This document shows positions 17,910 to 31,976 of a stretch of DNA of 64,000 bases, piece after piece (the first letter of the stretch is position 1; every line of letters begins with the position of its first letter). Under the pieces are notes generated by a model. It did no database searches. It was given only the letters and a program-made list of their open reading frames with translations, and was not told the origin of the DNA. Position numbers and translations under genes: made by a program. The DNA comes from an uncultured Candidatus Saccharibacteria bacterium (GTDB lineage: Bacteria > Patescibacteriota > Minisyncoccia > Portnoybacterales > UBA2143): the NCBI GenBank assembly GCA_964596615.1, contig CAZQUN010000002.1, positions 11,332-75,331 on the forward strand, written 5' to 3'.

Positions 17910-17916
17910 CTACAAT

Positions 17917-18960
17917 TTAAGAAAGAATATTGTATTCATCCTCTTTAGCGTCTTCTAGGATTTTTAAAAATTCGTCAAATTCCTTCTTCTTTTTGTTTAT
18001 TATATCCTCTAACAATTCTACTTTTAAATCTCTTAAACCTTTGGGCATATTTGGATCTAGATCAAAACCAATTAAGAAAATATCAATAATCTTAATTTTG
18101 GGATTGTGTCTTTCTATAATCCCTTTATATCCTAAAACTTGGCCAATATGTTCTGCTTTTATTTTTATGATAGGCCTTTTTAATTCAGCTAAAACAATAT
18201 GGTTTTCGTCTTGCAAGTACATCTTAACTATTAAATCTGGTTTTTTCCCGAGTTCGGGGTCTTTCTTTATGTTTTGAGCAAGATAATCACTTAATGGTTT
18301 ATTGCTTTTTACTAAATCATAGTTATTATCTAGTAACCATAGGTTATTTTCTAACAGTTTATGAATCTCTCTTTCTTTCGTATCTTTTTGTTTCATTAAA
18401 CTTTCTAATAATTTAATTATTGATATTTTCTTTTGAATAAGTTCCGCTATAGAATTAATTTGATGAATTTTTAATTCATTTAAAAGCGAAACGAAGCCAG
18501 TCAATTCATCTCCACCTGCCTCAGATAATTTTTTTAACAAAAAATCAAGATTTTCTGCCTTGATTTCATAAATTCTTAGTCCTAGTTTGTCCAACGCCTC
18601 AAAACTTGCCTCGGTTAAATTGCTTATATTTTTATTTGATAGTATTTTTTGCAGAAAATCGGGATCACTTTTTAAGGTTGCATCTATATTTTTTAAAATT
18701 TCTACTTCAGAGGATGTCATCTTTTTAATAGGCCATTGATGTTCTTTTGTGGTTTCTGACTCAATAACGCTTTTTAACATACTCCAATCTTTAAGATGAA
18801 GATTAAAAAATTGTTGTTTTCCTCCGGGTTTTCCTTGCAATGTTCTGTTCATAATTATGTAATTTCTATCTGCGTGTTCCATATCGCTAACCACGGAAAA
18901 TGACGTAAATCCGCTAGACCATTTCTTTGTTATTTTTTTAATTACTTTAAACTTACTCAT
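17917..18960 (-). CDS. PD-(D/E)xK nuclease, Shedu (SduA)/DUF4263-like
   Basis: C-terminal NLWLLDNNYDLV...KKPDLIVKM...VLAELKRP...IGQVLGY gives RecB-like motifs D, ExK and QxxxY. Confidence 0.4.
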   Translation of the reverse strand: MSKFKVIKKITKKWSSGFTSFSVVSDMEHADRNYIIMNRTLQGKPGGKQQFFNLHLKDWSMLKSVIESETTKEHQWPIKKMTSSEVEILKNIDATLKSDPDFLQKILSNKNISNLTEASFEALDKLGLRIYEIKAENLDFLLKKLSEAGGDELTGFVSLLNELKIHQINSIAELIQKKISIIKLLESLMKQKDTKEREIHKLLENNLWLLDNNYDLVKSNKPLSDYLAQNIKKDPELGKKPDLIVKMYLQDENHIVLAELKRPIIKIKAEHIGQVLGYKGIIERHNPKIKIIDIFLIGFDLDPNMPKGLRDLKVELLEDIINKKKKEFDEFLKILEDAKEDEYNILS

Positions 18961-19159
18961 AAAAAATTTGGTTTATTTCAGATGGCTCGTTTATATGCGA
19001 ATTTCAACAATTGACTTTTCTATATCTCTATCCTACCACAACAATATCTATTTTTAATATTTAACTCACATCCTTAATACACCGGCCTGTAGGGCTATAG
19101 CTACAGCTTTAGAGAAATGATTGCATTTTTATCTTAGTATCCAATACTGAAATGGTTTA

Positions 19160-19597
19160 TTAATCATTTTTTATTTTTGTTTTTGAGTTTATTCCGACTC
19201 CTGGCCCATATTTACCCATTGGTACATCATGTAGTTCATTTGGGAATTTATCAATGAGTTTTTTTATTATTTTCTTTGAATAGTCGTCTTTTGCATCCCA
19301 TTCTGTGGTAAGGTGATGGTAGCTACGATGAGGACCATGTCTCTCTAAATAATTAACAAGCCTTGTCTTTCTTCGCCAAGCTTTTATCTCTCGCCATAAA
19401 AAATAAATTAATAGAAGCCAAAGAAAAAGAAATATGATTACAACATACGATTTCCAGGATTGTGGAAATAAAATAATCCATTTATTGATTGTTGATGGGA
19501 GGATAAAAATTAGAAGTATAACTACTATATGTATTGGTTTATTCTCAACTATTTCTAGAATTTCTTTTATATTTTTAATGTTATTATTTTCATTCAT
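19160..19597 (-). CDS. hypothetical membrane protein (3 TM) with a basic cytoplasmic tail
   Basis: ORF and hydropathy only. Confidence 0.35.
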   Translation of the reverse strand: MNENNNIKNIKEILEIVENKPIHIVVILLIFILPSTINKWIILFPQSWKSYVVIIFLFLWLLLIYFLWREIKAWRRKTRLVNYLERHGPHRSYHHLTTEWDAKDDYSKKIIKKLIDKFPNELHDVPMGKYGPGVGINSKTKIKND

Positions 19598-19770
19598 GAT
19601 TGTATATTTAAATTAGTCACAATAATCGATTTTTTTACATCTCTAAGCTTTATATTACCATGGTGATAGATATTTTCAATATTCTTAATCTACATACCTA
19701 TGACTCTATAGCTACATAACCTGCAGAAAACAATAAAATAGGACAATTAAAATTGATCAGACTTATCAAC

Positions 19771-19799
19771 TTGCTGTGTAAAGAATTGTAAAGTATAAT
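19771..19799 (+). promoter_or_regulatory. sigma70-like promoter upstream of the methyltransferase gene
   Basis: TTGCTG, 17-nt spacer, TATAAT, 7 nt before the ATG region. Confidence 0.45.
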
Positions 19800-19805
19800 G
19801 GAGAC

Positions 19806-20936
19806 ATGAACAACAAAATAAAATATTATACAGCTCAAGAGCTTGCAAAAGAATTAAGGGTGAACATAATGACAATCTATCGTTATGTTAAGGCTGGCAA
19901 GCTTAAGGCCCATAAAATAGGTAAGGAATTTAGAATCTACAAAGAAGAATTTGATAGATTTTTAAACGAGACAAAAATTGATAAAAGAGAAAAAAATCCT
20001 AAGAAAGTTAAAAAATACGGCCTCGATTTAGGTAAACGAGGTATTTATGATATTAGAAATCCATTAAATGATTTGACTGGTCGAGAATGGATCTATTTTT
20101 TAAACTCTATTCGTGTTACCGATTTTTCTACTGATGAGAATGAGTTGGAGCTATGGAAATACTTACAAAATTCTTTGATAGAAACTAGATATTCGACAAA
20201 TGGCAAAGATTCATTCGCTCATGATTTAAGAAAAATACATCCTTCGCCAAAGCCACCACAATTGATGAAAGAATTGATAGAATTTTTTACAAAAAGAAGT
20301 GGTTATATTTTAGATCCATTTATGGGGGTGGGGGGAACTCTACTTGGAGCATCGTTATCTAAGAGAAAAGCTGTTGGGATCGATTTGTGTAAAAATTATA
20401 TTGATGTTTATAAAAAAGCTACAGAAAAATTAAACTTAAAAGAACAAACTACTATAGTAGGCGATGCTAGAAATATCGACAAGTATCAACAAACAAAATC
20501 TAAGCTTTTTGATGCCATTATTACAGACCCACCATATGCTAATTTACTATCGAAGAAACGTACTGGAGGGGACAGAACAAAAAAGATAGGCACATCTACG
20601 CCCTTCACAGATAATCCACTAGATCTGGGGAACTTTGACTATAAAGATTTCCTGCCTGAATTTAGAAAAATAATAGAAAGACTCTTATTAAGCTTAAAAC
20701 CGAAAGGATATTTTATTACATTCATAAAAGATCTTCAGTCAAATGAAACGCACCATAATATGTTACACGCAGACATAGTAAACGAGTTAATAAAAATATC
20801 TGATCTTTCCTACAAAGGATATAAGATTTGGTACGATAAGACAATTAACCTATATCCTTATGGTTATCCTTTCTCTTTTGTGGCTAATCAATTACATCAA
20901 TTTATCCTAGTATTTAGAAAAGAGAGAAAAAAATGA
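19806..20936 (+). CDS. DNA methyltransferase (N6-adenine or N4-cytosine) with an N-terminal excisionase-type HTH
   Basis: N-terminal MNNKIKYYTAQELAKELRVNIMTIYRYVKAGKLKAHKIG (HTH_17/Xis-like). Then motif I DPFMGVGGT and motif IV ITDPPY. Confidence 0.7.
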   Translation: MNNKIKYYTAQELAKELRVNIMTIYRYVKAGKLKAHKIGKEFRIYKEEFDRFLNETKIDKREKNPKKVKKYGLDLGKRGIYDIRNPLNDLTGREWIYFLNSIRVTDFSTDENELELWKYLQNSLIETRYSTNGKDSFAHDLRKIHPSPKPPQLMKELIEFFTKRSGYILDPFMGVGGTLLGASLSKRKAVGIDLCKNYIDVYKKATEKLNLKEQTTIVGDARNIDKYQQTKSKLFDAIITDPPYANLLSKKRTGGDRTKKIGTSTPFTDNPLDLGNFDYKDFLPEFRKIIERLLLSLKPKGYFITFIKDLQSNETHHNMLHADIVNELIKISDLSYKGYKIWYDKTINLYPYGYPFSFVANQLHQFILVFRKERKK

Positions 20937-21973
20937 GATTTATAGGGAATAAACAAAAGCTATTAGAATTTATACTTTCTAAGATCAGAGAGCATAAGAT
21001 TGGTCGTGGGATATTGATTGATATATTTTCAGGAACAACTAATGTCGCGAAATTTTTTAAGAGATTGGACTATCCGGTTATCTCGAATGATCTTTTATGT
21101 TTTTCGTATATATTCCAACGAGCGTATATCCAAAACAATCGACAACCTCTTTTTAGGGGATTAAAGAAGATAGTTAATCAGTCTTCTCTATCTTCTGTTA
21201 TTGAGTGTTTAAATAGCCTAAAAGGTGTTGAGGGTTTTATGTACAACAATTTCACAAAAGGGGGCACTTCGAATAAAGAATATAGTAGGAATTATTTAAG
21301 TGAAGAAAATGCAAGGAAAATTGATGCCATCAGAGATAAAATCGAGCAATGGAAAATAAAAAAAATAGTCACAGAAGAAGAATACTTTATTTTATTAACC
21401 TCTTTGATTGAGGCAGTCCCATATGTATCTAATATTGCTGGAACCTATGGGGCTTTTTTAAAAATAGACGATCCCAGGAAATATAAACCTTTAACTTTAA
21501 AGAATCCTGAAATTATTATAAATAAAAATAAAAATTTTGCTTTCAATGAAGATGGGAATGAACTAATTAAAAAAATAAAAGGCGATGTTCTTTATATAGA
21601 TCCGCCATATAATTCAAGACAATACGCTCCCAATTATCACCTTTTAGAACACATTGCAATATGGGATAAAAAGGTTATGGATAATAAAACAGGATTAAGA
21701 GACTATAATAAACAGAAATCCTTATACTGTGCTAAAAATAAAGTTTACCATGTGACTCTGGATCTAATCGAAAAAGCCATAAACAAAGCCCAGGTAAAAC
21801 ATATCTTATTTAGTTATAATAACGAAGGATTATTAGAGGATTATCAAATTAAGGAAATCTTTGATAAGTTTGGAAAAGTTTATTTTTATAAAAAATCATA
21901 TCCCAGATTTACACATCGAAACAACCACAGAAAAAATACTGAAGAATATCTATTTTATTTATCTGTTCAGTAA
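20933..21973 (+). CDS. Dam-family (D12 class) N6-adenine DNA methyltransferase
   Basis: DIFSGTTNV (motif I), YIDPPYNSRQYAPNYHLLEH (motif IV and downstream Dam box). Start overlaps the upstream MTase stop. Confidence 0.7.
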   Translation: MRFIGNKQKLLEFILSKIREHKIGRGILIDIFSGTTNVAKFFKRLDYPVISNDLLCFSYIFQRAYIQNNRQPLFRGLKKIVNQSSLSSVIECLNSLKGVEGFMYNNFTKGGTSNKEYSRNYLSEENARKIDAIRDKIEQWKIKKIVTEEEYFILLTSLIEAVPYVSNIAGTYGAFLKIDDPRKYKPLTLKNPEIIINKNKNFAFNEDGNELIKKIKGDVLYIDPPYNSRQYAPNYHLLEHIAIWDKKVMDNKTGLRDYNKQKSLYCAKNKVYHVTLDLIEKAINKAQVKHILFSYNNEGLLEDYQIKEIFDKFGKVYFYKKSYPRFTHRNNHRKNTEEYLFYLSVQ

Positions 21974-23335
21974 TTTTTCTATTTTATTTAAAAATTTAGC
22001 TAAAGTCTTAAATATAAATACCTCACCTTTTTCTGTTAAAACAAAAATTACATGTTCATTTGTTATTTGTTTGCCGTATAATACTATCCCTCTTTTAAGC
22101 TTATAGCTGGGATATAAAGGTTTTAAGCATTCGGTCTCAAAAGCTAGAAAAGTCTTTAAATCTTTTAATGCTTTTTTTAGTTTAGCTGTTATCTTGCCTT
22201 CCAAAGAATAAATTTCTTTATTGTAGTCATCTCTTAAAACTAAATCTGGTAAATTAACTATCCCTTTTCTTTTATTCCTCTCAATATATTTATGAACAAC
22301 AATTGGATTCCCCTTCAAATCATATAAATATCCTCTTTCGCAACCAGCGTGATTTTCATATATTGGGATAATATCTGTGGTACGCAAAGAAAGCATATGA
22401 AGCAAGATGGTGGCTAATTTTTCTGATTTATTCTCATATTTCCAATATGATTCAGGGAGATCCATTTTAGGAATTTCCAATTTTTCTAGTTCGATATGCA
22501 AGGCATTCGCAATAAGAATGAATTTATTCGAGTGCGATACATGTCTTTGTTTTAGTCCGTGATGTGTGATTATTATTCTACCCTTCCATCCTAATATTCT
22601 CAGCGTCTTCGAAATTAAAGTTAAAGCACCAATATTTGGATCATGAGATAGACTATCGCTTTTAATTAATCTCCCGCTTATATAGATGGCGTTATTAGTC
22701 TTTTTGATTAATATAGGAACATTACCTCTTGGTGGTTTTCTCATTTTATTTTTCACTTCGATTACTTCTTTAATCGATTTAAATGGGGTGGGTTTAAAAA
22801 GGCTACTGCTTTTTCCAAACATCTCAACGCCTATCGTCAATAATAACTTAGTCCCAAATATATTTGTGTCTGTCGGCTTTCTGCTCTCCTCAACTTGTAA
22901 ATTATATAACATGATTTTTCTTATGGTTGGATAATAAATATCTATAAAAACAAATTTTGATGCTCTTTGAAAAATTCCTGTATTTCTTGACTCAATATCT
23001 CCTGTTTTGGTTTCTTCAACGACTAAAATAGGTTTTTGCGTTGGGCTAGGAGGACCAATCCCTTCATATATTAGAAAATCCACAAAGCTGCTATCGCCGC
23101 TTACGATCTTTAACAGAATATCAGATCTTCCTCTAATTCTTACATTATCTATCCTATACAAATGAGCAAAAATACCCTTATTAAAAATAGGGTTAATTAC
23201 TGCGTTGCCTTTAGCTCGAAGATTTAAATTCTTCTGTTCAGCATAAAGCCCAAGTATTTTTTCTATAATCTCCGGCTTAGGCCGTTCCTCGCATAAAATC
23301 CAAGTTTTTATTTTATTTGTGGTAGACATATTCAA
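21959..23335 (-). CDS. putative Type II restriction endonuclease (PD-(D/E)xK-like core near the C-terminus)
   Basis: Convergent with and overlapping the Dam-like MTase; PDLVLRDD...EIYSLEGK fits PD...ExK; no other recognisable domain. Confidence 0.4.
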   Translation of the reverse strand: MNMSTTNKIKTWILCEERPKPEIIEKILGLYAEQKNLNLRAKGNAVINPIFNKGIFAHLYRIDNVRIRGRSDILLKIVSGDSSFVDFLIYEGIGPPSPTQKPILVVEETKTGDIESRNTGIFQRASKFVFIDIYYPTIRKIMLYNLQVEESRKPTDTNIFGTKLLLTIGVEMFGKSSSLFKPTPFKSIKEVIEVKNKMRKPPRGNVPILIKKTNNAIYISGRLIKSDSLSHDPNIGALTLISKTLRILGWKGRIIITHHGLKQRHVSHSNKFILIANALHIELEKLEIPKMDLPESYWKYENKSEKLATILLHMLSLRTTDIIPIYENHAGCERGYLYDLKGNPIVVHKYIERNKRKGIVNLPDLVLRDDYNKEIYSLEGKITAKLKKALKDLKTFLAFETECLKPLYPSYKLKRGIVLYGKQITNEHVIFVLTEKGEVFIFKTLAKFLNKIEKLLNR

Positions 23336-23413
23336 AATTAAACCTCGCTTTTACTTAACCTTAACAATTTTTTATAACAGCGTCTATATCTTGGCTACTA
23401 TAGACTATCAATA

Positions 23414-23443
23414 ACAAAAGCCCGGCAATGGGCTTTTCTTTCA
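23414..23443. terminator. bidirectional intrinsic terminator
   Basis: AGCCCGGCAATGGGCT hairpin flanked by A-run and T-run. Confidence 0.5.
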
Positions 23444-23501
23444 ACTTTGAAGATATTAGTTACTTAAATAAAAGGGCTTTACTTTTTATTTAATGATAAA
23501 T

Positions 23502-24107
23502 TTATCTATTTTCAGTGGGTCCGAGTTTTTTTATATGATCTCTTGGTCTAACGAACTTACTTCTATTCAAAACAACAATTTCATAATTTCTAGCCATAGG
23601 TTCGCCAAAATGAATTTTTATATATTCTCCTAATCCAAACGGAAAATTTTTATCGTAGTTATTTATGCCGTAGCCGATGGGGAATTTGCTAAAAATTGGG
23701 TGAAAAGCGCTGAACTCGTAGCCAACTGGAAGCCAAGATGATCGCCTCGGGTGATATGGATGAAGATATAAAATATCCCAGTGTTTGCCATTTTCGCAAA
23801 CGGTCTCATAAATATCAATAGGGCCGTTAACTTTGCCGCTTTTTGTAGATCCTAATCGATGGTACATAAGACCAGTACCACACTTGCATCTCAATCTATT
23901 GATATATTTCATCTCGCCAATAGCGCCGTTAACAGGAATAGAATTAGCGGCGATGCGACCAAAGTCCTGTTCACTGTCTATCAAAGAATCACAATCCCTT
24001 CCCTTTATGGCTAATGGATATAAACCGGGGATCTCTTTTTTTAGGTCTTGCTCCTGATCTTCAAGGGACTCATCAATAAATTTTTTCTTAAATAAATTAA
24101 AAAACAT
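23502..24107 (-). CDS. hypothetical protein (201 aa)
   Basis: ORF only; Cys-containing; no recognisable motif. Confidence 0.35.
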   Translation of the reverse strand: MFFNLFKKKFIDESLEDQEQDLKKEIPGLYPLAIKGRDCDSLIDSEQDFGRIAANSIPVNGAIGEMKYINRLRCKCGTGLMYHRLGSTKSGKVNGPIDIYETVCENGKHWDILYLHPYHPRRSSWLPVGYEFSAFHPIFSKFPIGYGINNYDKNFPFGLGEYIKIHFGEPMARNYEIVVLNRSKFVRPRDHIKKLGPTENR

Positions 24108-24110
24108 ATA

Positions 24111-24344
24111 TTAGATCTTCGTCTTTTTTTCTAAACTATTTAATTCTCGATATAGATCCTTTAATTCTATTTCCAGTAAGCCAGAAAGTTCTTTTAAATT
24201 AACGACTTCTCTCCTTATGTCTCTTTTTAAGATGCGGAGAATACCGAAGGGATAAAGTAGTTCTGATATCCTTTTATTATATTCTTCTCTTTGCTTTTCC
24301 AAGAACATAATTTTCCGTTTTACTTTTTTAATTCTATTATTCAT
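24111..24344 (-). CDS. hypothetical coiled-coil protein (77 aa)
   Basis: ORF only. Confidence 0.3.
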   Translation of the reverse strand: MNNRIKKVKRKIMFLEKQREEYNKRISELLYPFGILRILKRDIRREVVNLKELSGLLEIELKDLYRELNSLEKKTKI

Positions 24345-24384
24345 GTTTTAAGCTAACTCGTTGATATTTAGGAGATGGATAGAA

Positions 24385-24528
24385 TTATTTACACCAGTAT
24401 TCACAACCTTGTTCAGTCCTTTGAGCGGCATTGTAGGTTCTGTAATCGGTAATAAAAATCCAGATCGAGAAAACTACCAAAGTCGTGACTCCTAATAGAA
24501 GTAGAATTAATTGTAGCCAGTCCTTCAT
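24385..24528 (-). CDS. small hydrophobic peptide (47 aa) ending GCEYWCK
   Basis: Hand translation MKDWLQLILLLLGVTTLVVFSIWIFITDYRTYNAAQRTEQGCEYWCK; one TM helix; not in the ORF track (shorter than 60 aa). Confidence 0.3.
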   Translation of the reverse strand: MKDWLQLILLLLGVTTLVVFSIWIFITDYRTYNAAQRTEQGCEYWCK

Positions 24529-24828
24529 GGTTTTTTACAATGGGAATACACAAAGCCCCGCGCTAGCTAGGCCTTGCGGCCCTATAGCCCTTTCGGGATA
24601 TAGCCCATCACTGAGTTGCTGAACGCGGGGTCCAGTATCAGTGATGGGTCTTTTACGCCATGCCCTAAAAGGGTTTAGGTCATTTAGTTGTTATTTATAA
24701 CTTACCACAAGTTTTATTGGAATGGAAGCGATAAAAGGGGATATCTAATATTTTAAACAAATATTGAAAGAAGGCTTAGAACGGGATAAAATAAAGGAAA
24801 TTACAATGATAATTATTCTAACATTACG

Positions 24829-25695
24829 ATGATCACAGGAGTAAAATTTGATTCAGGAGTAAAATTTGATTGGGAGAATCTTTCCTCAGAAAATCTTAAA
24901 ATCGCCAGGAAGGTTATTAAGGTTATTTCAGATTTTTTACAATTTCAGCCAATGGGCAGATTCTCACCTTATACTGTAATACCATTACAAAGATTCGAAG
25001 AAAAACGGATATGTATAGACGATATAAACATGGTATTGGATAAAATAGATGATATAAAGGTTAGTAACGACGAATTGCGCTATGAAATAAAATATCATCC
25101 ACAACGAATTCTAAGGTGGTTTTATGGAAATTTTACCGATGATGGTTTATTTAACGTCCCACCAGAAAAGATACTCAAAAATTACATTTTTCTACAAATA
25201 AGTTCGATAAGCGATCTTCGTCGAGTACAGGGCTTGATCGATGAAAGACTTAAAATAGACTCCAGGCAAAAAGAAGAAATACTATCTCCTAATTATCTAA
25301 AATCAATACACCTTATTACTAAGTCTCTTGAGCCGACCGATGTGATATTCCTAGTTCTTGATGAGCGTTTTGAATATCCTATAAGAAGCGTAGTATGGCA
25401 CAAAGGCAATCCTACATATGTCAAAAAACTATATGATATTGCCTATTTTGTGGATGTTCCAAATAAAAAAGTTAATTATGGTAAAAATATAGCTAATAGC
25501 ATTAACAACGGGTTATTTAGAAAAAGGCCAGTGGCAGAATATATGGAAACAAATAAATTCAAAAAGCCAACGCTTGTACAAAAATCAGAAAATAAAACTT
25601 TGGTTTTAAAAAATGAAATTCTTGTAGAAACAGGTCTTATTCATAATAAAGTTCCGAAACAATATCAATATCTTTATATAGATAAAACAAGATAG
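24829..25695 (+). CDS. hypothetical protein (288 aa)
   Basis: ORF; followed by a terminator. Confidence 0.4.
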   Translation: MITGVKFDSGVKFDWENLSSENLKIARKVIKVISDFLQFQPMGRFSPYTVIPLQRFEEKRICIDDINMVLDKIDDIKVSNDELRYEIKYHPQRILRWFYGNFTDDGLFNVPPEKILKNYIFLQISSISDLRRVQGLIDERLKIDSRQKEEILSPNYLKSIHLITKSLEPTDVIFLVLDERFEYPIRSVVWHKGNPTYVKKLYDIAYFVDVPNKKVNYGKNIANSINNGLFRKRPVAEYMETNKFKKPTLVQKSENKTLVLKNEILVETGLIHNKVPKQYQYLYIDKTR

Positions 25696-25734
25696 TGTTC
25701 GTATATCATTAAACTTGGGAGTTGGTCGTATGCT

Positions 25735-25762
25735 AAAAACCGCTTTAATAAGCGGTTTTTTT
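25735..25762 (+). terminator. intrinsic terminator
   Basis: AAAAACCGCTTTAATAAGCGGTTTTTTT. Confidence 0.65.
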
Positions 25763-25830
25763 CATTTGTTCTTCGACTGGTCGGATAGATATAATAATAG
25801 CAAATAAATTACTGATCTAATAAAAATTAT

Positions 25831-26091
25831 ATGACCCAAAAACAAATGGATGATACAAAAAATTATTTTCACAGCCACGACATTGGACTGGTTGCTTATT
25901 TGCTTTGTCGAAATTTTGAATTAGTCAGCCTGGATAAAGTCATGAAAAATAAGGTGCTTTTCATTCTGAAAAGGACCAATAGGATAGACATAGAAATAAA
26001 GAAATATTGGGATTTTAATTCATTAGTTGATGCCCAAACTTATTTTAATCAACTAAAGAGGTTAAAAAATCAAATCTTTAGTTCAGAGTGA
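25831..26091 (+). CDS. hypothetical protein (86 aa)
   Basis: ORF only. Confidence 0.3.
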   Translation: MTQKQMDDTKNYFHSHDIGLVAYLLCRNFELVSLDKVMKNKVLFILKRTNRIDIEIKKYWDFNSLVDAQTYFNQLKRLKNQIFSSE

Positions 26092-26343
26092 CTTATGTCG
26101 AATAACAAAATACAAAACGATTAATAGATTTATGACTAGCCAACAAAAGTTTAAAGTTAAAATCAAATTCAATAAAAATATCTCCAAAAAAGAAAGAAAG
26201 AAAAGGCTGCGAAATGTTTTCGATACATTGTTCTCTAAAGGAGATAGTAAAGAAACTAAACTGAACCTTGGTACTGGTTTGGGGTTCCGGCAGGACATGC
26301 AAACTCCCTGGAAACCAGAGCTAGTACTGGGGCTTACGCAGGG

Positions 26344-27141
26344 ATGCCAAAAAGAAGAATGATCGACGCTAATAGATTATATGGGGATACAGAACTGATT
26401 GAAAATATCGGTAAGGATGGGTTGTTGCTCTATATTCTACTTTGGTCAATGTCAGAGGATTTCGGTGCTTTCGAGAATAACCCAAAGCAAATCCATTATG
26501 AGTCAAAAGGGGTAAGATTGAGTGTGAAGAAAATACAAGAATATTTAGAAACACTAGAAAGATTAGGAAAAATTATTCTTTATAGAGTCGATGACAAAGA
26601 ATACTACTGGCTTAAGAATTTTTTTAAGTATCAGAAATTATCTAATGCTTCGCTTCCCAATCTACCTCTACCTGAATGGATTAAGTATAAAGAGTGTCAA
26701 TATCCAGGCGGTAGAAAGTATGCTCAATATAATGTAGATACCGAGAAACTACCTGTAGCCTACATGAAGCCTGTACGAGGCATAGTCGAAAAAGAGAAGC
26801 GAAAGAGAAGCGAAGATAAAAGAAAGGAAAATAAAAGAAGCGAAGAGGGAAAAAAGTTGTCATTCGACAATAATAACGAGCAGTCGTCTTTAAATAGATC
26901 TAATAATATCGCTGAACCGCTTACTTGTAAATCAAAGGAATTCAAAGTTAGAGAGATAGCCGAAGAATTAGGAGAAGTCGATCCGATCAAATCTACCAAA
27001 GTTTGGTTAGGGAAATATGACTACTCTTTAATTAAAAGAACCTGGGAAATTTATGGAAAGCGAACTGAAACTAAAACAATTAAAAACTGCCCCGCCTATT
27101 TCAATAGTTTACTAGAAAAATTACATAGTGAGCGAAAGTAA
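26344..27141 (+). CDS. hypothetical protein, possible replication/regulatory function (Lys-rich linker)
   Basis: ORF lying between the cargo genes and the terS-like gene; no confident motif. Confidence 0.35.
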   Translation: MPKRRMIDANRLYGDTELIENIGKDGLLLYILLWSMSEDFGAFENNPKQIHYESKGVRLSVKKIQEYLETLERLGKIILYRVDDKEYYWLKNFFKYQKLSNASLPNLPLPEWIKYKECQYPGGRKYAQYNVDTEKLPVAYMKPVRGIVEKEKRKRSEDKRKENKRSEEGKKLSFDNNNEQSSLNRSNNIAEPLTCKSKEFKVREIAEELGEVDPIKSTKVWLGKYDYSLIKRTWEIYGKRTETKTIKNCPAYFNSLLEKLHSERK

Positions 27142-27156
27142 ATCCTATTTATTTTT

Positions 27157-27666
27157 ATGAGTAAAGGCGAAAAAATTAAACTATCACCCCAGCAAGAATT
27201 GTTTTGCCAGCTTTATATTAAAGATTATTTTGGCAATGGAGTTAAATCATACATCATTGCCTATAAGAAGGAATTTCCAATAGATGTTGAGTATCGATAT
27301 TTAAATCCAGACGAAAAAAAACGATATGATTCCTATGCTGTCCGGGCCGCTCAACTATTAAGAAACCTTAAGATGGTTAAGCGCATAGGAGAATTACTCG
27401 ATGAGCATATTGAGGATGCAGTAGTAGATAGAGAAATGATAGCGGTTATTCTCCAGAAGGAAGATTTGACCGCGAAGATGAGGGCGATCAGCGAATATAA
27501 CAAAGTCAAACAACGAATCATTTCTAAATCTGAGATTGAGAAAAAAGTAATAAAGGTCGACAAAACAAGTAAAGAGTTTAAGGAGTATAAACAATGGCGA
27601 TTAGAGAAGAGAAAATTAAAAGAAGAGAGCCAGGAGAGGTTGGCCCGAAAGAAGAAAAAGAAATAG
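27157..27666 (+). CDS. phage terminase small subunit-like protein
   Basis: LSPQQELFCQLYIKDYFGNGVKSYIIAY resembles the conserved N-terminal TerS (Terminase_2) motif L-x-QE-FC-x-Y. No terL, portal or capsid genes are present. Confidence 0.5.
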   Translation: MSKGEKIKLSPQQELFCQLYIKDYFGNGVKSYIIAYKKEFPIDVEYRYLNPDEKKRYDSYAVRAAQLLRNLKMVKRIGELLDEHIEDAVVDREMIAVILQKEDLTAKMRAISEYNKVKQRIISKSEIEKKVIKVDKTSKEFKEYKQWRLEKRKLKEESQERLARKKKKK

Positions 27667-28009
27667 TAAAGGAGTACTTTAATCGGTTTCGTCTATCTAA
27701 GGAGCAGCAAAGGGAAGTCCTTGTGAGAATGATTGCCGAGTTGCGATTGGATATAACGATTTCTTTAGAGGACCAGTTTTGCTTAAAAAGGAACAAGAGA
27801 AATAAAAAAACCGTTTAGGCTATTTAGTTTCTCATATTTGATTCTTGCTTGCTTATTCCGTCTGCCTATTTCTTAAGAAGCTCTCTAATTCCTTTTCAGA
27901 AATACGACATGACTTTAATAGATGGTTATATTTATCATAAAAAAAGAAAGAATAAAATCAATTAAATATACCAATATGATACCAACAAAAACCCATAAAA
28001 TAAACTTTT

Positions 28010-28195
28010 TCATTTTCTTTTATTTAAAAACTTTTCTAATTCCTTTTTCTCGATTCTAAAATTCCGCTCAGTTAATTTAATCGCTTTTAATTTACCCGAA
28101 CGAATATAGCGCCAGACGGTTTCGTTGCACACATCTAGTAATCCAGCGATCTCTTTCGGGGTATAGTATCCTTTTTTGAGTTTTGTTTTGGCCAT
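28010..28195 (-). CDS. excisionase/Xis-family HTH DNA-binding protein
   Basis: YYTPKEIAGLLDVCNETVWRYIRSGKLKAIKL is the HTH_17 pattern; divergent from the recombinase gene. Confidence 0.7.
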   Translation of the reverse strand: MAKTKLKKGYYTPKEIAGLLDVCNETVWRYIRSGKLKAIKLTERNFRIEKKELEKFLNKRK

Positions 28196-28333
28196 GTTTT
28201 CATTATAGGAGTCGAGTAAGAGAAAGTCAACTTTTGTCTACTCTATCCATAGTCAACAACACTTGACAGGGGATAACTGGTAAGTTAAAATTAAGACAAG
28301 TATAGTCAACAAGAGTCAACACAATAATCTTTT
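28196..28333. promoter_or_regulatory. xis-int divergent intergenic region with five AGTCAAC-type repeats
   Basis: AAGTCAAC, TAGTCAACAA (twice), AGTCAACAC and an inverted TTGACAG. Confidence 0.4.
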
Positions 28334-29911
28334 ATGACAAGCATGTCAAAAATTAAAGCAGTCGTATATGCTAGGGTTAGTTCTGATGAACAGAAAAAGA
28401 AGGAATTTAGTATTCCCAAAATTCAGATTCCTGAATGTATCAATTATATCAAAGAAGAGGGTTGGCTGTTTGCTGGATCCTATGTGGACGAAGGCTTTGA
28501 TTGTAATGCTTTTGAAAAAAGAGCCGAACTTCAAAGAATGCTTAACGGAGAAACGGATAATTATGATGTGGTTGTCGTTTGGAGCTATGACAGATTAGTC
28601 GGTGATGATGAGAATACCCGGGGCCAAATCTACCATATTTTAGACAGAAACAAAAAACAGATAACTTCGGTCAGACAAAGAGCAAGGATAGTCCCAATTG
28701 ACCAGTATGACCCTAAGAGCTTAGATGTCGCTCAAAGGAGACAAATTACTGATATAGGGGTCAGTTTTGATAGAAAGATTAGGAGGGAGAGGTTTATGGA
28801 ATCAAGAGCCAAGACAGTGGCTAATGGCAGGCATATCTCAGAGCCGCCGTATGGTTATAAACTGATTAGGAAGGTTCACCCAGAGGATAAAAGGAGAACT
28901 ATTGGTTATCGATTAATCAATGAGGATGAATCATTAATTTTAGAAAGGATATTCAAAGAGAGGGCTACTGGCAAGAGTTGTAGGAGGATTGCTTTTGGCC
29001 TAAACGATGATGGAATCAGAACTAGAAAGGGTAAAAATTGGACCAACGCCAGGATAACCTATCTTTTAAAAAATTCTTATCCTTGCGGTCTAATTACTTG
29101 GAATAGGACTACCCAGAGGAAATATGGCGACGAACAGGTAAGAACCTACATCCCAGAAGAAAAATGGCAGTATTTCCCGGTTAATACGGCGGTAGAGAAG
29201 TATTATAAGCCGATTATTAGTAAAGAGTTGTTTGATAAAGTTCAGGAGATTAGACAAAGAAATAGAACAGTGTTAAGAGGAAGCGCTTCGTATAGTAGTA
29301 ATTTTTTGGCCGGTCTTCTGAAATGTCCTGTCTGCGGTCGGCCAATGGTAGAAGCTAGTTTTCGTAAACTCAAGAAAAGCATTCTAAGTTATTATATTTG
29401 TTCTTCTCGTCATAATGACGGGGTTTGTAAGAATAAGAAAAGGATAAGAGCGCCGGAATTGAAAGAAGCAGTGCTTAAAGAGGTAATAAAATACCTGAAT
29501 AATCCAGGCGAGTTTAGAGAATACCAAAAGCAGCAGAAAAAAGATGTGCTTAAGAGAGCGGAGAGAGAGGTACTTATCTATGAGAAAAGATTAGCGAAGA
29601 TGAGATCAAGGATTCATTCGCTGAATTTAAAGTTTATAGATGGAAAAATCAAGGATAGTTATTACAAGCAATTACTGGCCAGTTTAGAAGAAGATGAAGA
29701 AGGATTAAAGAAAATTGTTTCTAGAGAAAAAGAAAAGGTAGAGGATTTTAAGAAAAAAAAGGGGACTATAACGAAGTTAAAAGTATTAAGCAGGGATTTT
29801 CGAAGAAGATTTATGGAGCTGGATAATGTTAAAAGAAAACATATTTTCCATACTTTAATTAGGGAGATAAAGGTTCAGGATGATGAGGTAAAAATATTTT
29901 TTAAGGTTTGA
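28334..29911 (+). CDS. large serine recombinase (resolvase/invertase-type catalytic domain plus recombinase and zinc-ribbon domains)
   Basis: N-terminal AVVYARVSSDEQ catalytic Ser motif; 525 aa; C-terminal CPVCGRPM...C zinc ribbon and coiled-coil. Confidence 0.85.
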   Translation: MTSMSKIKAVVYARVSSDEQKKKEFSIPKIQIPECINYIKEEGWLFAGSYVDEGFDCNAFEKRAELQRMLNGETDNYDVVVVWSYDRLVGDDENTRGQIYHILDRNKKQITSVRQRARIVPIDQYDPKSLDVAQRRQITDIGVSFDRKIRRERFMESRAKTVANGRHISEPPYGYKLIRKVHPEDKRRTIGYRLINEDESLILERIFKERATGKSCRRIAFGLNDDGIRTRKGKNWTNARITYLLKNSYPCGLITWNRTTQRKYGDEQVRTYIPEEKWQYFPVNTAVEKYYKPIISKELFDKVQEIRQRNRTVLRGSASYSSNFLAGLLKCPVCGRPMVEASFRKLKKSILSYYICSSRHNDGVCKNKKRIRAPELKEAVLKEVIKYLNNPGEFREYQKQQKKDVLKRAEREVLIYEKRLAKMRSRIHSLNLKFIDGKIKDSYYKQLLASLEEDEEGLKKIVSREKEKVEDFKKKKGTITKLKVLSRDFRRRFMELDNVKRKHIFHTLIREIKVQDDEVKIFFKV

Positions 29912-30361
29912 TTAGTTTTGTCCCGGTGTTGTAAGGAGAAAGTCATATCCAGTATGGATAACTATCGCCGCGATAAGTCCTAGAACAGGCCTTTTTCTTT
30001 TTATAAAATAGCAGATAATCATAGCGGTAATAATCTGGAGTATTGTAGGGGATATACGGACGCTTAGACTATGAACATCTCCTCTGGCAAGGTGCCGAGT
30101 AAAAGATTCTATTCCAGACCAACCCAGTCCAAAGGAAATGCTATAAGGGTTTTCTATTTTCCAACTTTTGATAGATAGGAACTTGCCTAGTTCTTCAGAA
30201 AGTCCGTTAAATAAAGATTCTGTCAGGTGGGCCGATAAAAGAGGCAAGCTACCTAAAGCGTTAAGGCCTGTTATCCTGATAATAAATTCAAAGACTAGGA
30301 ATAGTATTCCGAAGCCGATTATGCCTGCGAGAAAAGCGATCAGAGTATTAATTAGACGCAT
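29912..30361 (-). CDS. CPBP-family (CAAX protease / Abi) intramembrane metalloprotease
   Basis: Multi-TM; conserved C-terminal ...AAIVIHTGYDFL motif region of the CPBP/Abi family. Confidence 0.6.
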   Translation of the reverse strand: MRLINTLIAFLAGIIGFGILFLVFEFIIRITGLNALGSLPLLSAHLTESLFNGLSEELGKFLSIKSWKIENPYSISFGLGWSGIESFTRHLARGDVHSLSVRISPTILQIITAMIICYFIKRKRPVLGLIAAIVIHTGYDFLLTTPGQN

Positions 30362-30409
30362 TGTTATTTCAGGTTATAATTTACTGAGATGACAAAGTTC
30401 AGATATTTT

Positions 30410-31162
30410 TTAAGGTTTAGCCGAAAAAGATATTGTGTCCTGTCTTTGTTCCAATTTCTTTTCTAAAACCTTTGATATTCCATATTTATACAAATCCTGT
30501 CCAAGCTTTGTTATTGAAAATCGATTCCCATTCCTAAAAGCTATTCCGCTAGCAGAACACAAAGCTTCCATTTCCCAATAATCAAAATCTTTATTTGTTT
30601 CTTTCAATAGTTTGCTAAGCTCATTTATTTTACCGCCACTATTTAAGTAAAACTTAAATTCTGCTCTTGATAAAATAGCTAGATAATTAAATGTTGACTC
30701 TTGAAGGCTTTTCAAACAACTGACAAGCGAGGTAAAACGCTCCCAGTCAATTTTTTTTGATATATAGGCACTGAATAGGTAGGCTAAAATCCTAGATTTT
30801 TTTACTGAGTCTAAGTCTTCGATTATAACTAAAATTTGCTCGGTAATTTTATTTCTGAACTTTTTGTTCTTCTTAAAATTATGTCTAAATTCTTTTAAGG
30901 CTTCTTTGTCTACTTTGTTTGACTTAAACTCACTAAGAAATATCAAAAATTTTTTAATAAAAAATCTTTCTTTCACGGCAACGCCAGTTTTAATAATAGC
31001 AACTAGTGTTTTTACGACCGGAGCCTCTTTTAATAAATCAACATCGAGAAGATTGTCGAGTCCAATTTCGGCATAATCTTTGCTAACATCTAAGCTAGGA
31101 TTAATAATCTCTTTTGAAATATTATTCATTAAAATGTTGTTCATTCTTTTTTTGAGAATCAT
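30410..31162 (-). CDS. hypothetical protein (250 aa), possibly defence-related partner of CPBP
   Basis: ORF; Lys-rich; no confident motif. Confidence 0.35.
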   Translation of the reverse strand: MILKKRMNNILMNNISKEIINPSLDVSKDYAEIGLDNLLDVDLLKEAPVVKTLVAIIKTGVAVKERFFIKKFLIFLSEFKSNKVDKEALKEFRHNFKKNKKFRNKITEQILVIIEDLDSVKKSRILAYLFSAYISKKIDWERFTSLVSCLKSLQESTFNYLAILSRAEFKFYLNSGGKINELSKLLKETNKDFDYWEMEALCSASGIAFRNGNRFSITKLGQDLYKYGISKVLEKKLEQRQDTISFSAKP

Positions 31163-31247
31163 ATGATTAATTGTGTTTAATTGTTATTAATGATAGTCGA
31201 ATCTTGGAAGAGTAGCAAGTGTTGATTGTTGCCATGGAGTAAGCGGT

Positions 31248-31976
31248 ATGCATATGATTATTATGACCCAAGTTCTTTTATTCTTGGCCTTGGCAATTGG
31301 CCTTTGGCGAAACCAGGCCTTTTATTTTGTCCTAATTATCTTAATTCTTTATATTACCATGATTGGCGCTCCGGCTTCGGCAGTCAGAGCCGGAATTATG
31401 GCCGGATTACTTTTATTAGCTCAAAAAGTTGGTCGCTTACGGAGTGCCAACAGAGCAGTCGTTTTTGCTGCGACAATTATGCTCCTAATTAATCCGCTTT
31501 TATTAAAATCTGATGTTGGTTTTCAATTATCTTTTGTGGCAGTCCTGGGCATTATTTATTTAAAACCCATTTTTGATCAAAAAATATCCAAGTGGCCCAA
31601 CCCATATTTTCTAAAAGATATTTTAACAATGACTTTGGCTGCCCAATTATCAACTCTGCCTATTTTAATTTTTCACTTTGGCCGCCTTTCTTTAATTTCT
31701 CCTTTAGCTAACTTATTAATCGTCCCTTTATTGCCTTTAATAATGATATCAGGAATAATTTTAGTTTTTTCCGGTTTAATTTGGCTGCCTTTGGCTAAAA
31801 TTATTGCTTGGCCAGCCTGGCTTTTATTGAGTTATGTTATTAAAATTATTGATTATCTTTCATTGTTTCCAATACCAGCAATTGAATTTGAAAAAGTTTC
31901 TTTAATAATCCTATCTCTTTATTACCCAATCCTATTATTTTTTATTTGGAGAAATATAAAGGAGCAGGTCTCTTAG
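31248..31976 (+). pseudogene. comEC: ComEC competence-domain fragment (continuation of 17316..17909)
   Basis: MHMIIMTQVLLFLALAIGL...GAPASAVRAGIMAGLLLLA...GFQLSFVAVLGI matches Competence-domain (PF03772) TM signatures. The ATG is part of the ATGCATAT junction repeat. Confidence 0.8.

What the first reader, a model, noticed from the sequence alone, without database searches (positions are those of the whole stretch)
26344..29911. Phage-inducible-island-like gene set: terS-like gene without any structural or terL genes, next to the xis-int module
The only phage-morphogenesis-type gene in the element is a terminase small subunit-like ORF (LSPQQELFCQLYIKDY...). It is preceded by a possible replication/regulatory protein and followed by Xis and a large serine recombinase. 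There is no terL, portal, capsid or tail gene. This content (integrase, regulators, replication protein, terS only) is the hallmark of PICI/satellite elements that hijack a helper phage. A satellite in this lineage would be new.
Basis: inference. Interest (0 to 1): 0.55.

Follow-up and report, generated by a model that had tools for sequence, protein, structure and literature searches.

The report
Small mobile element with orphan terS
A 13.4-kb mobile element, inserted by a serine recombinase into the comEC gene of a Patescibacteria (CPR) genome, carries a genuine phage small-terminase gene but no other virion genes; this fits a phage-hijacking satellite but does not prove one.

Summary
The 169-aa ORF (27157-27666) is a real small-terminase (TerS) homologue. 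Pfam Terminase_2 is sub-threshold for it, but it is 33-50% identical over residues 8-125 to about 90 metagenomic phage proteins. 56 of 61 of those hit Terminase_2, and nearly all sit directly upstream of terL. The window has no terL, portal, capsid or tail gene. The gene set belongs to a discrete 13,362-bp low-GC element (17886-31255). A large serine recombinase (LSR) inserted it into comEC, and the empty site is intact in 17 related Patescibacteria genomes. The element also carries a phage-type replication initiator, a divergent HTH_17 Xis-like gene (minus strand), a type II restriction-modification (R-M) system, a Shedu-like nuclease and a LOOT RNA. Related recombinases (48-72% identity) mark a family of comEC-targeting elements. 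Most have replication genes and defence cargo without virion genes, and one has terL. None of the others has this terS. No helper phage, repressor or capsid-remodelling gene was found. A TerS-redirecting satellite is my best single reading (about 0.4). A relic terS, or a co-opted DNA-binding protein in a non-satellite island, remain serious rivals. PICI membership is not established.

The parts
17886..31255 (.). Whole integrated element, 13,362 bp from core to core. GC is about 29-36%, against about 38-44% in the flanks.
   Evidence: GC drop. Identical 8-bp cores at both ends. Joining the flanks recreates an uninterrupted comEC, as found in 17 related genomes.
17886..17893 (+). attL core ATGCATAT (crossover region).
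31248..31255 (+). attR core ATGCATAT. The element-side arm (about 31224-31247) is conserved among related elements. The reconstructed attP has the inverted repeat ATGGAGT...ACTCCAT around the core.
17316..17909 (+). comEC 5' fragment (DUF4131 plus the start of the Competence domain). It ends 5 codons into the element.
   Evidence: Pfam. 85% aa identity to intact ComEC of a related MAG.
31248..31976 (+). comEC 3' fragment (Competence domain positions 31-265 of 270).
   Evidence: Pfam E 2.4e-46.
17917..18960 (-). Nuclease-like cargo protein with weak Shedu SduA_C / restriction-enzyme-like matches.
   Evidence: Pfam SduA_C E 4.8e-5, below cut-off. PADLOC SduA E 2e-4. phrog_6203 E 1e-20. NCBIfam BbrUII-like E 6e-8, far below cut-off.
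19806..23335 (.). Type II restriction-modification cargo: HTH_17-N6/N4 methyltransferase (19806-20936 +), D12 adenine methyltransferase (20933-21973 +) and restriction endonuclease (21959-23335 -).
   Evidence: Pfam. PADLOC MTase_II E 2e-86 and 2e-93, REase_II E 1.8e-60.
24569..24681 (-). LOOT RNA (Rfam RF03000) in the divergent intergenic region, with a promoter-like sequence upstream that is conserved in the sister element.
   Evidence: 69 bits against a gathering score of 46.4. Sister element L116 has one at the same relative position, 87 bits.
24385..24528 (-). 47-aa ORF with a predicted transmembrane segment, 40 nt downstream of LOOT.
   Evidence: ORF only; no evidence of expression.
24829..26362 (+). 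First genes of the rightward operon: a 288-aa unknown, a terminator-like hairpin (25735-25760), DUF5659 (25831-26091) and a 76-aa basic ORF (26132-26362).
   Evidence: DUF5659 and the following small ORF are shared with sister element L163.
26344..27141 (+). Phage-type replication initiation protein homologue.
   Evidence: PHROGs 1408, 16167, 2149, 12556 and 270, E 1.4e-13 to 1.8e-4. No close homologue elsewhere.
27157..27666 (+). Orphan small terminase (TerS) homologue of the Terminase_2 / SPP1-SF6 G1P type. Residues 8-125 are conserved. The Lys/Glu-rich helical tail (128-169) is specific to this element.
28010..28195 (-). HTH_17 excisionase/regulator-like protein, divergent from the recombinase gene. 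It is 70-72% identical in sister elements L162 and L163.
   Evidence: Pfam HTH_17 E 7e-14. phrog_66 E 5.7e-10..
28225..28320 (+). Four direct AGTCAAC repeats bracketing the divergent promoter-like sites of the xis-like and recombinase genes. They are probable operators.
   Evidence: Four of the nine copies in the whole window lie within 96 bp. Promoter-like sites score 11/12 on both strands. Sister elements have different repeats at the same positions.
28334..29911 (+). Large serine recombinase. The likely start is 28343, as in the 522-aa call on contig L012. It has the YARVSSDEQ active-site motif.
   Evidence: Pfam Resolvase, Recombinase and Zn_ribbon_recom. phrog_95 E 4e-76. 28 relatives found; every one whose locus I examined lies next to a comEC fragment.
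29912..31162 (-). Two leftward genes between the recombinase and attR: a 149-aa membrane protein (49% identical in sister element L116) and a 250-aa unknown.

Best explanation
Shown. The window holds a 13,362-bp integrative element. A large serine recombinase inserted it at a fixed codon position (…SGMH|MII…) of comEC in a Patescibacteria (CPR) chromosome, splitting the gene. The element encodes its own recombinase, a divergently transcribed HTH_17 Xis-like regulator with repeated operator-like sites, a phage-type replication initiator, defence cargo (type II R-M, Shedu-like nuclease) and a LOOT RNA. Immediately downstream of the replication gene it also encodes an intact phage-type small terminase, with no large terminase or virion genes.

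Inferred mechanism. The element behaves as a helper-dependent phage satellite of the SaPI-like 'own TerS' type. On infection or induction of a helper phage it excises (LSR plus a directionality factor, its own or phage-supplied as in PLE) and replicates from its own initiator. Its TerS recognises a pac site on the element and recruits the helper's TerL and procapsids, so that element DNA is packaged and transduced. It then re-integrates into comEC of the next cell.

The anatomy is near certain. The confidence figure applies to the satellite mechanism.
For: TerS identity:
- HMMER hits of 1e-13 to 1e-17, with 38-43% identity over about 70% of the protein.
- 103 IMG/VR relatives.
- 56 of 61 family members hit Pfam Terminase_2.
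- A family profile hits only small terminases in the PDB, best SF6 4zc3 at E 0.01.
- The AF2 model's best BFVD match is a TerS at E 6.3e-6, and 11 of the top 13 matches are named TerS.

Orphan status:
- In all 5 metagenomic relatives examined, a terL follows or the contig ends at the gene.
- In 64 of 80 IMG/VR loci an ORF of at least 370 aa starts within -79 to +484 nt of the terS stop. At least 40 of the 69 downstream proteins hit Terminase_3 and 33 hit Terminase_6N.
- The window has no terL by tblastn and no structural hit by Pfam or PHROGs.

Discrete and probably mobile:
- Identical 8-bp cores, an inverted-repeat attP, and an empty attB in 17 genomes.
- Intact LSR with a regulated promoter region.

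Other points:
- It has its own replicon.
- Size (13.4 kb) and defence cargo match known satellites.
- The same LSR clade and the same comEC site are used by small virion-gene-free elements (L163, 9,069 bp complete; L116; L164; L168). One element with terL and a tail-fibre-like gene (L167) also uses them, so phage-like partners exist in this host group.
- Satellites with LSRs (PLE, PMC6002521) and with LSR plus terS homologues (marine VEIMEs, PMC9618062) are precedents.
Against: - No helper phage was identified. The closest TerS is 45% identical, nothing matches in 50,697 GenBank phages, and the element shares nothing but terS with 91 phage loci.
- terS is absent from every sister element found. 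Its position there is taken by unrelated small proteins: DUF5681 in L163, and a 135-aa protein in L116 with only a weak TerS-PHROG hit at E 1.3e-3.
- There is no Stl/CI-type repressor, no pri-rep, and no capsid-size or packaging-interference gene.
- Only one population carries the element. The second contig is 99.98% identical, so selection on terS cannot be measured.
- The element is not present in IMG/VR viral contigs, so there is no evidence of encapsidation.
Confidence: 0.4

Rival explanations
1. Non-satellite integrative island with a co-opted TerS-like DNA-binding protein. The element is a self-replicating, LSR-driven defence island that moves by other means, such as vesicles, generalized transduction or transformation. 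The TerS homologue serves as an accessory DNA-binding protein for replication, recombination directionality or regulation.
For: - Sister elements have a different small, probably DNA-binding protein in the same slot, between the replication genes and xis-int. These are DUF5681 in L163 and a GRPKG-rich 135-aa protein in L116.
- The C-terminal tail of the window TerS (residues 127-157) resembles the tail of the L116 protein (42% identity over 31 aa; E 2e-4 pairwise, 0.009 in tblastn). This hints at a shared partner independent of the DNA-binding domain.
- terS is co-oriented with rep and only 16 nt downstream of it.
- Most family members carry replication and defence genes and nothing phage-structural.
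Against: - Residues 8-125, including the central region conserved in terL-linked phage homologues and not just the HTH, are conserved with all family-invariant residues.
- Every other member of this protein family examined is terL-linked.
- To my knowledge no TerS-type protein is known as an LSR directionality factor.
- The tail similarity is short and compositionally biased.
Confidence: 0.3
2. Relic terS. The element, or its rep-terS segment, derives from a temperate phage of the same LSR/comEC-targeting lineage by deletion or recombination. terS is a recently stranded, functionless leftover.
For: - The same LSR clade includes an element with terL and a tail-fibre-like gene at the same comEC site (L167).
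- LOOT RNA, present here, also occurs in IMG/VR contigs beside terminase and LSR genes.
- A 343-bp non-coding gap follows terS exactly where terL would begin.
- terS is unique to this one element.
Against: - No detectable terL remnant exists downstream of terS or anywhere in the window.
- terS and all 17 ORFs are intact, and all family-invariant residues are kept.
- Several relatives are also small (9-14 kb) and lack virion genes. Small size is therefore a family trait rather than one-off decay.
- Satellites themselves are thought to arise this way, so this origin does not exclude satellite function.
Confidence: 0.25

Closest known systems
SaPI-type PICIs (phage-inducible chromosomal islands that carry their own TerS)
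   Same: An island of about 13 kb with a site-specific integrase, its own replication function, its own terS, no terL or virion genes, and accessory (defence) cargo. The proposed mechanism is redirection of the helper TerL by the island's TerS.
   Different: It has a serine rather than a tyrosine integrase. It inserts inside a protein-coding gene (comEC). It has no Stl-like repressor, no pri-rep homologue and no cpm/ppi-type genes. The host is a CPR bacterium, and helper induction is unknown.
PLE of Vibrio cholerae (PMC6002521) and serine-recombinase marine VEIMEs (PMC9618062)
   Same: These are satellites that integrate with a large serine recombinase. VEIME modules also include terminase small-subunit homologues, replication genes and excisionases. 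PLE shows that the directionality factor can be supplied by the helper phage.
   Different: There is no sequence relationship beyond the recombinase superfamily. PLE and the VEIMEs were shown to be packaged in virions, and this element was not. The host phylum and the target site differ.
Phi1207.3 / Phi10394.4 / Tn1207.1 of streptococci (PMC4260502)
   Same: These are mobile elements with serine recombinases that integrate at a specific site inside the comEC (celB) coding sequence and disrupt the competence channel gene.
   Different: The two streptococcal phage elements are 52-59-kb prophages with structural and lysis genes and a GA dinucleotide target. Here the element is 13.4 kb, has no virion genes, uses a different comEC position and sits in a different phylum.
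SPP1/SF6 G1P-type small terminases (Pfam Terminase_2; PDB 3zqp, 4zc3, 2cmp)
   Same: It has the N-terminal LSPQQElFCqlY helix-turn-helix motif. The family profile hits only these structures, and 56 of 61 relatives hit Terminase_2. The model is all-helical.
   Different: The window protein itself is below the Pfam cut-off (15.4 bits against 26.1). PDB matches are weak (E 0.01-0.04) and restricted to the DNA-binding domain. The C-terminal tail is unrelated, and there is no adjacent terL.

Membership tests
Small terminase, Terminase_2 (SPP1/SF6 G1P) type | The sequence matches the curated family model at its gathering score. | tested here: not met
   Pfam Terminase_2 gives E 0.03 and 15.4 bits against a cut-off of 26.1, over residues 9-36 only. 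There is no NCBIfam hit.
Small terminase, Terminase_2 (SPP1/SF6 G1P) type | Homology to proteins that are themselves family members, extending beyond the N-terminal HTH. | tested here: met
   33-50% identity to 60 relatives over residues 8-125, with 10 invariant and 24 near-invariant columns. 56 of 61 hit Terminase_2, best E 4.2e-11. PHROG 51 TerS E 1.4e-8.
Small terminase, Terminase_2 (SPP1/SF6 G1P) type | The gene lies immediately upstream of the large terminase gene. | tested here: not met
   This is met for the relatives but not here. The next gene on the strand is the recombinase, and there is no terL in the window. This failure is the point of the finding.
Small terminase, Terminase_2 (SPP1/SF6 G1P) type | TerS fold and ring oligomer. 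| tested here: inconclusive
   The AF2 monomer has pLDDT 70 and is all-helical. Its best BFVD match is a TerS at E 6.3e-6. The PDB fold search was not significant; the best hit was the NV1 small terminase at E 1.5. Oligomerisation cannot be tested here.
PICI / SaPI-like phage satellite | Size of about 10-18 kb, discrete, at a specific att site. | tested here: met
   13,362 bp with 8-bp cores, and attB intact in 17 related genomes.
PICI / SaPI-like phage satellite | Tyrosine integrase next to a divergent Stl/Str-type (or AlpA) regulatory pair. | tested here: not met
   The integrase is a large serine recombinase. Its divergent partner is an HTH_17 protein. No CI/Stl-like or AlpA hit was found among the element ORFs.
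PICI / SaPI-like phage satellite | Own replication module (pri-rep plus ori). | tested here: inconclusive
   A phage replication-initiator homologue is present but not a primase-helicase. No iteron-type origin was recognised.
PICI / SaPI-like phage satellite | Packaging-hijack gene(s) (terS, cpm, ppi, rpp) without virion or lysis genes. | tested here: met
   terS is present (above). There are no structural or lysis hits. Six short ORFs remain unannotated.
PICI / SaPI-like phage satellite | Induction, replication and encapsidation depend on a helper phage. | not testable with these tools
   No helper was found, and the element is not in IMG/VR.
Large serine recombinase integrative element | Resolvase catalytic domain plus Recombinase plus zinc-ribbon domains, with short-core att sites and no long direct repeats. 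| tested here: met
   Domains. The YARVSSDEQ motif can be read in the sequence. The 8-bp identical core, inverted-repeat attP and conserved element-side arm occur in five relatives at the same comEC position.
LOOT RNA (Rfam RF03000) | The covariance-model score is above the gathering threshold over the full model. | tested here: met
   69 bits against 46.4, model positions 1-121. The sister element scores 87 bits, with compensatory differences visible in the long hairpin.

The most novel reading that the evidence does not exclude
This is the first phage satellite recognised in the Candidate Phyla Radiation. It would belong to a family of serine-recombinase elements that all target one codon of comEC, knocking out the DNA-uptake channel on which these reduced bacteria are thought to depend. 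Members of the family would swap packaging-hijack modules (terS here, other small DNA-binding proteins in sisters) to match different helper phages. LOOT RNA would be their regulatory RNA.
Probability: 0.3. Interest if true: 0.65.

Novelty: new variant of a known kind. Interest (0 to 1): 0.45.

Why it matters
Phages of CPR/Patescibacteria are barely known, and the two-term full-text search I ran returned no paper describing a satellite in them. A TerS-bearing, helper-dependent island there would extend phage parasitism to ultra-small episymbiotic bacteria. It would also give a handle on their unknown phages, because the cognate TerL must exist.

Independently of the satellite question, three things are solid:
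- A family of serine-recombinase elements repeatedly targets the same codon of comEC in Patescibacteria. This is a convergent echo of streptococcal Phi1207.3 and bears on conflict between mobile elements and DNA uptake.
- The recombinases come with well-defined natural attB/attP pairs.
- LOOT RNA is located here in mobile elements of Patescibacteria and in contigs carrying a recombinase or terminase gene. From memory, it was previously known only from unassigned metagenomic sequence.

Tried and rejected
- Relatives of the recombinase in genome contigs and viral contigs: none. The metagenome scan gave one, L116.
- Relatives of the replication protein: none apart from itself.
- TerS against 50,697 GenBank phages: no match, so no cultured relative or host clue.
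- PDB fold search with the TerS model: not significant.
- Single-sequence AF2 of the 288-aa unknown: pLDDT 37.7, unusable, so a structural role could not be excluded by fold.
- NCBIfam on ten element proteins: nothing useful.
- Test of whether the 74-aa ORF overlapping the terS 3' end (27594-27818) or the gap after terS is a terL remnant: no tblastn signal at E <= 1. Rejected.
- Test of whether the L116 135-aa protein is a TerS or DUF5681: only a weak PHROG hit (E 1.3e-3), no Pfam hit and no viral relatives. Unresolved.
- DUF5681 literature and phage search: uninformative.
- Iteron-type origin search: none convincing.
- LOOT literature: it is not described in the main text of the discovery paper, and the supplements are not held.
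- Of 39 pattern matches for LOOT in IMG/VR, most were chance. Three were confirmed by Rfam.
- A second prophage in the window as helper: the other low-GC stretch, 41-50 kb, holds ordinary host genes.


Full report
**1. What is at the coordinates**

- 26344-27141 (265 aa) matches five PHROG families annotated as replication initiation protein, best phrog_1408 at E 1.4e-13 over residues 18-192. It has no Pfam or NCBIfam hit.
- 27157-27666 (169 aa) is the terS candidate, treated in section 2.
- The 'Xis' is a 61-aa HTH_17 protein at 28010-28195 (Pfam E 7e-14; phrog_66 'excisionase and transcriptional regulator' E 5.7e-10). It lies on the minus strand, divergent from the recombinase.
- 28334-29911 is a large serine recombinase (LSR) with Resolvase, Recombinase and Zn_ribbon_recom domains (phrog_95 E 4e-76).

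**2. Is the 169-aa protein a TerS?**

- Pfam Terminase_2 gives E 0.03 and 15.4 bits against a cut-off of 26.1, over residues 9-36 only. There is no Terminase_4 hit.
- PHROG 51 (TerS) gives E 1.4e-8, again for the N-terminal 37 residues only.

Homologues settle the question.
- A search of 5.8 billion proteins found five relatives at E 1e-13 to 1e-17, with 40-42% identity over 70-75% of the query.
- IMG/VR holds 103 more.
- In a 61-sequence alignment the window protein is 33-50% identical to the others. It keeps all 10 invariant and 24 near-invariant columns across residues 9-121, so similarity extends well beyond the helix-turn-helix.
- 56 of the 61 sequences hit Terminase_2 at E <= 0.01.
- A profile of the family hits only small terminases in the PDB: SF6 4zc3 at E 0.01, 2cmp, 3zqp, and Pam5.
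- An AF2 model (pLDDT 70, all helical) has a TerS as best BFVD match (E 6.3e-6, 41% identity), and 11 of the top 13 matches are named TerS. The PDB fold search was not significant.

Genomic context agrees.
- In four of the five metagenomic relatives a terL follows directly, matching Terminase_6N, Terminase_3 or terminase-large-subunit PHROGs. In the fifth the contig ends at the gene.
- In 64 of 80 IMG/VR loci an ORF of at least 370 aa starts within -79 to +484 nt of the terS stop. Most of the rest are cut by contig ends or have an ORF of about 350-510 aa within about 2 kb; two, L086 and L087, have none or only one that runs off the contig end.
- Of 69 such downstream proteins, 40 hit Terminase_3 and 33 hit Terminase_6N.

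The protein is therefore a genuine member of a phage TerS family of the SPP1/SF6 type, known so far only from uncultivated phages. It has no match in 50,697 GenBank phage records.

**3. Is it an orphan?**

Yes.
- Downstream of terS lie 343 bp of non-coding DNA, the minus-strand HTH_17 gene and the recombinase.
- The 69 terL-position proteins from related loci find nothing in the 64-kb window by tblastn; the best E is 0.01, in an unrelated host gene.
- None of the element's 17 ORFs gives a significant structural or lysis hit in Pfam or PHROGs.
- Six ORFs of 77-288 aa remain unannotated. An attempt to model the 288-aa protein failed, with pLDDT 37.7.
- The rest of the window is ordinary chromosome: IF-2, Mur ligases and tRNA clusters.

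**4. The real unit**

A drop in GC content, from about 38-44% to about 29-36%, spans about 17.5-31 kb. It is flanked by two halves of comEC.
- 17316-17909 carries DUF4131 and the first 34 positions of the Competence domain.
- 31248-31976 carries Competence positions 31-265.
- Both junctions contain ATGCATAT, at 17886-17893 and 31248-31255.
- Joining the flanks gives …IVAISGMH|MIIMTQ…. The reconstituted 432-aa ComEC matches uninterrupted genes in Patescibacteria MAGs at up to 85% identity. In 17 of these the predicted attB DNA and peptide are present intact.
- The element is 13,362 bp long. The reconstructed attP has the inverted repeat ATGGAGT…ACTCCAT around the core, as expected for an LSR site.

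Besides the module in the finding, the element carries:
- a weak Shedu/restriction-like nuclease;
- a type II R-M system of two methyltransferases and an endonuclease (PADLOC E 2e-86, 2e-93 and 1.8e-60);
- several unknowns, and DUF5659;
- a LOOT RNA (RF03000, 69 bits against 46.4) in the divergent intergenic region.

The xis-int intergenic region has divergent promoter-like sites scoring 11/12. It also holds four direct AGTCAAC repeats within 96 bp, out of nine copies in the whole window.

**5. Relatives of the element**

The LSR has 28 relatives at 27-72% identity.
- Every locus examined places the LSR next to a comEC 3' fragment, at the same MH|MII (or MH|I) codon position. The element-side arm is conserved, with consensus GCTATAG-GTAAGCGGT|ATGCATAT.
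- L163 is a complete 9,069-bp element. It carries a protease, a 301-aa unknown, DUF5659, a DnaG-type zinc-ribbon primase, a 454-aa unknown, DUF5681, HTH_17, the LSR and SocA_Panacea. It has no virion genes.
- L116 (LSR 72% identical) is at least 14.1 kb. It has a different R-M system, a LOOT RNA at the same relative position (87 bits) and the same membrane protein after the LSR.
- L164 and L168 carry methyltransferases, and L168 also a DnaB-like gene; no virion-gene family is recorded for them.
- L167 (52%) carries DnaB, a terL (phrog_2 E 5e-30) and a collagen-like tail-fibre-like gene, so it looks phage-derived.
- Only the LSR, the HTH_17 protein (70-72% identical in L162 and L163), DUF5659 with its small neighbour, and one membrane protein are shared with the window element. 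terS and rep are unique to it.
- In the slot occupied by terS, L163 has a DUF5681 protein. L116 has a 135-aa protein whose best PHROG hit is a TerS family, but weakly (E 1.3e-3). Its C-terminal 31 residues resemble the tail of the window TerS (42% identity, E 2e-4 pairwise).
- The only other copy of the window element, L012, is 99.98% identical and so is not independent.

**6. Interpretation**

The anatomy is secure. This is an LSR-integrated, replication-equipped, defence-carrying 13.4-kb element in comEC of a CPR bacterium, with an intact orphan terS.

The best single mechanistic reading is a helper-dependent satellite that uses its own TerS to direct a helper's TerL and capsids to its DNA, as SaPIs do. 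I give this about 0.4.
- In favour: the orphan status of a protein whose relatives are all terL-linked; intactness; size; its own replicon; defence cargo; a phage-like relative at the same att site; and literature precedents for LSR satellites (PLE, PMC6002521) and for LSR plus terS satellites (VEIMEs, PMC9618062).
- Against: no helper; no satellite-type regulators or capsid-interference genes; no evidence of encapsidation (the element is absent from IMG/VR); and above all the absence of terS from all sister elements.

Two rivals remain.
- A non-satellite island in which the TerS-like protein is a co-opted DNA-binding factor (about 0.3). This is supported by the positional equivalence with other small proteins and by the shared tail.
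- A relic terS left by deletion from, or recombination with, a phage of the same comEC-targeting lineage (about 0.25).

Membership in PICIs proper is not supported. The integrase class and the regulatory module fail, and helper dependence is untestable here.

**7. Comparison and novelty**

- Insertion of serine-recombinase elements into comEC is known from streptococcal Phi1207.3, Phi10394.4 and Tn1207.1 (PMC4260502).
- Satellites with serine recombinases and terS homologues are also known.
- What would be new is the host lineage. One search found no paper describing a satellite in Patescibacteria. The family of comEC-targeting elements would also be new.
- I therefore rate this a new variant of a known kind, with moderate interest (0.45). 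The structural description is solid and useful, but the satellite claim rests on gene content alone.

Noticed in passing
window 24569-24681 (-); L116 7164-7278 (-); L129 8399-8517 (+); L123 2421-2538 (-) (= L156 about 8442-8559); L155 194-323 (-): LOOT RNA (RF03000) lies inside the element and inside its closest sister element at the same relative position, the head of the leftward operon, with a conserved promoter-like sequence upstream. Three IMG/VR contigs also carry it: L129 beside a large serine recombinase and a terL, L123/L156 beside terS and terL, and L155 beside a large serine recombinase. It is absent from five more distant comEC elements. This places LOOT RNA in Patescibacteria mobile elements and in contigs with recombinase or terminase genes.
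   Followed up: partly
window 24385-24528 (-): A 47-aa ORF with a hydrophobic segment (MKDWLQLILLLLGVTTLVVFSIWIFIT…) starts 40 nt downstream of the LOOT 3' end. In L116 the gene after LOOT also begins with a signal/TM-like segment. LOOT might be a 5' leader, or part of a toxin-like small-peptide cassette.
   Followed up: no
window 17886-17893 / 31248-31255; L116 14132; L162 2464; L163 1598 and 10667; L167 11664; L168 11635: A clade of large serine recombinases (48-72% identical) inserts different elements at the same codon position of comEC (…SGMH|MII…) in different Patescibacteria, with a conserved element-side arm. This gives several natural attB/attP pairs. It also means recurrent knock-out of the DNA-uptake channel gene.
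   Followed up: yes
window 28225-28320; L163 7655-7790; L162 636-850: Four direct AGTCAAC repeats bracket the divergent xis-like and recombinase promoters. Sister elements with 70-72% identical HTH_17 proteins have ATGAACA-type repeats at the same positions. This looks like co-varying operator/regulator pairs.
   Followed up: partly
window 31229-31258: A promoter-like site (TTGCCA-18-TATGAT) straddles attR and points into the comEC 3' fragment, which keeps an in-frame ATG from the core. The truncated ComEC C-terminal half might still be expressed from the element end.
   Followed up: no
L167 3872-6178 and 9463-11620: A comEC-inserted relative (LSR 52% identical) carries terL (phrog_2 E 5e-30), a collagen-like tail-fibre-like gene, DnaB and an extra small resolvase. 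It is either a prophage or another partial element. It is a candidate for the kind of phage that could act as helper in this host group. The upstream part of the 62-kb contig could not be fetched.
   Followed up: partly
window 24836-24871: A perfect tandem duplication of 18 bp (CAGGAGTAAAATTTGATT x2) sits at the start of the 288-aa ORF and gives the repeated peptide GVKFDS-GVKFD.
   Followed up: no
window 19806-19970 and 28010-28195: The first methyltransferase of the R-M cargo has an N-terminal HTH_17 domain of the same type as the Xis-like protein (Pfam E 5.5e-13). This suggests the R-M system is regulated by a related DNA-binding module.
   Followed up: no
L137 65-136, 445-516, 3323-3666; L117 8321-8664: These are unrelated IMG/VR contigs picked up by the LOOT pattern scan. 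L137 carries two twister-sister ribozymes and a group I intron, and L117 carries a group I intron.
   Followed up: no
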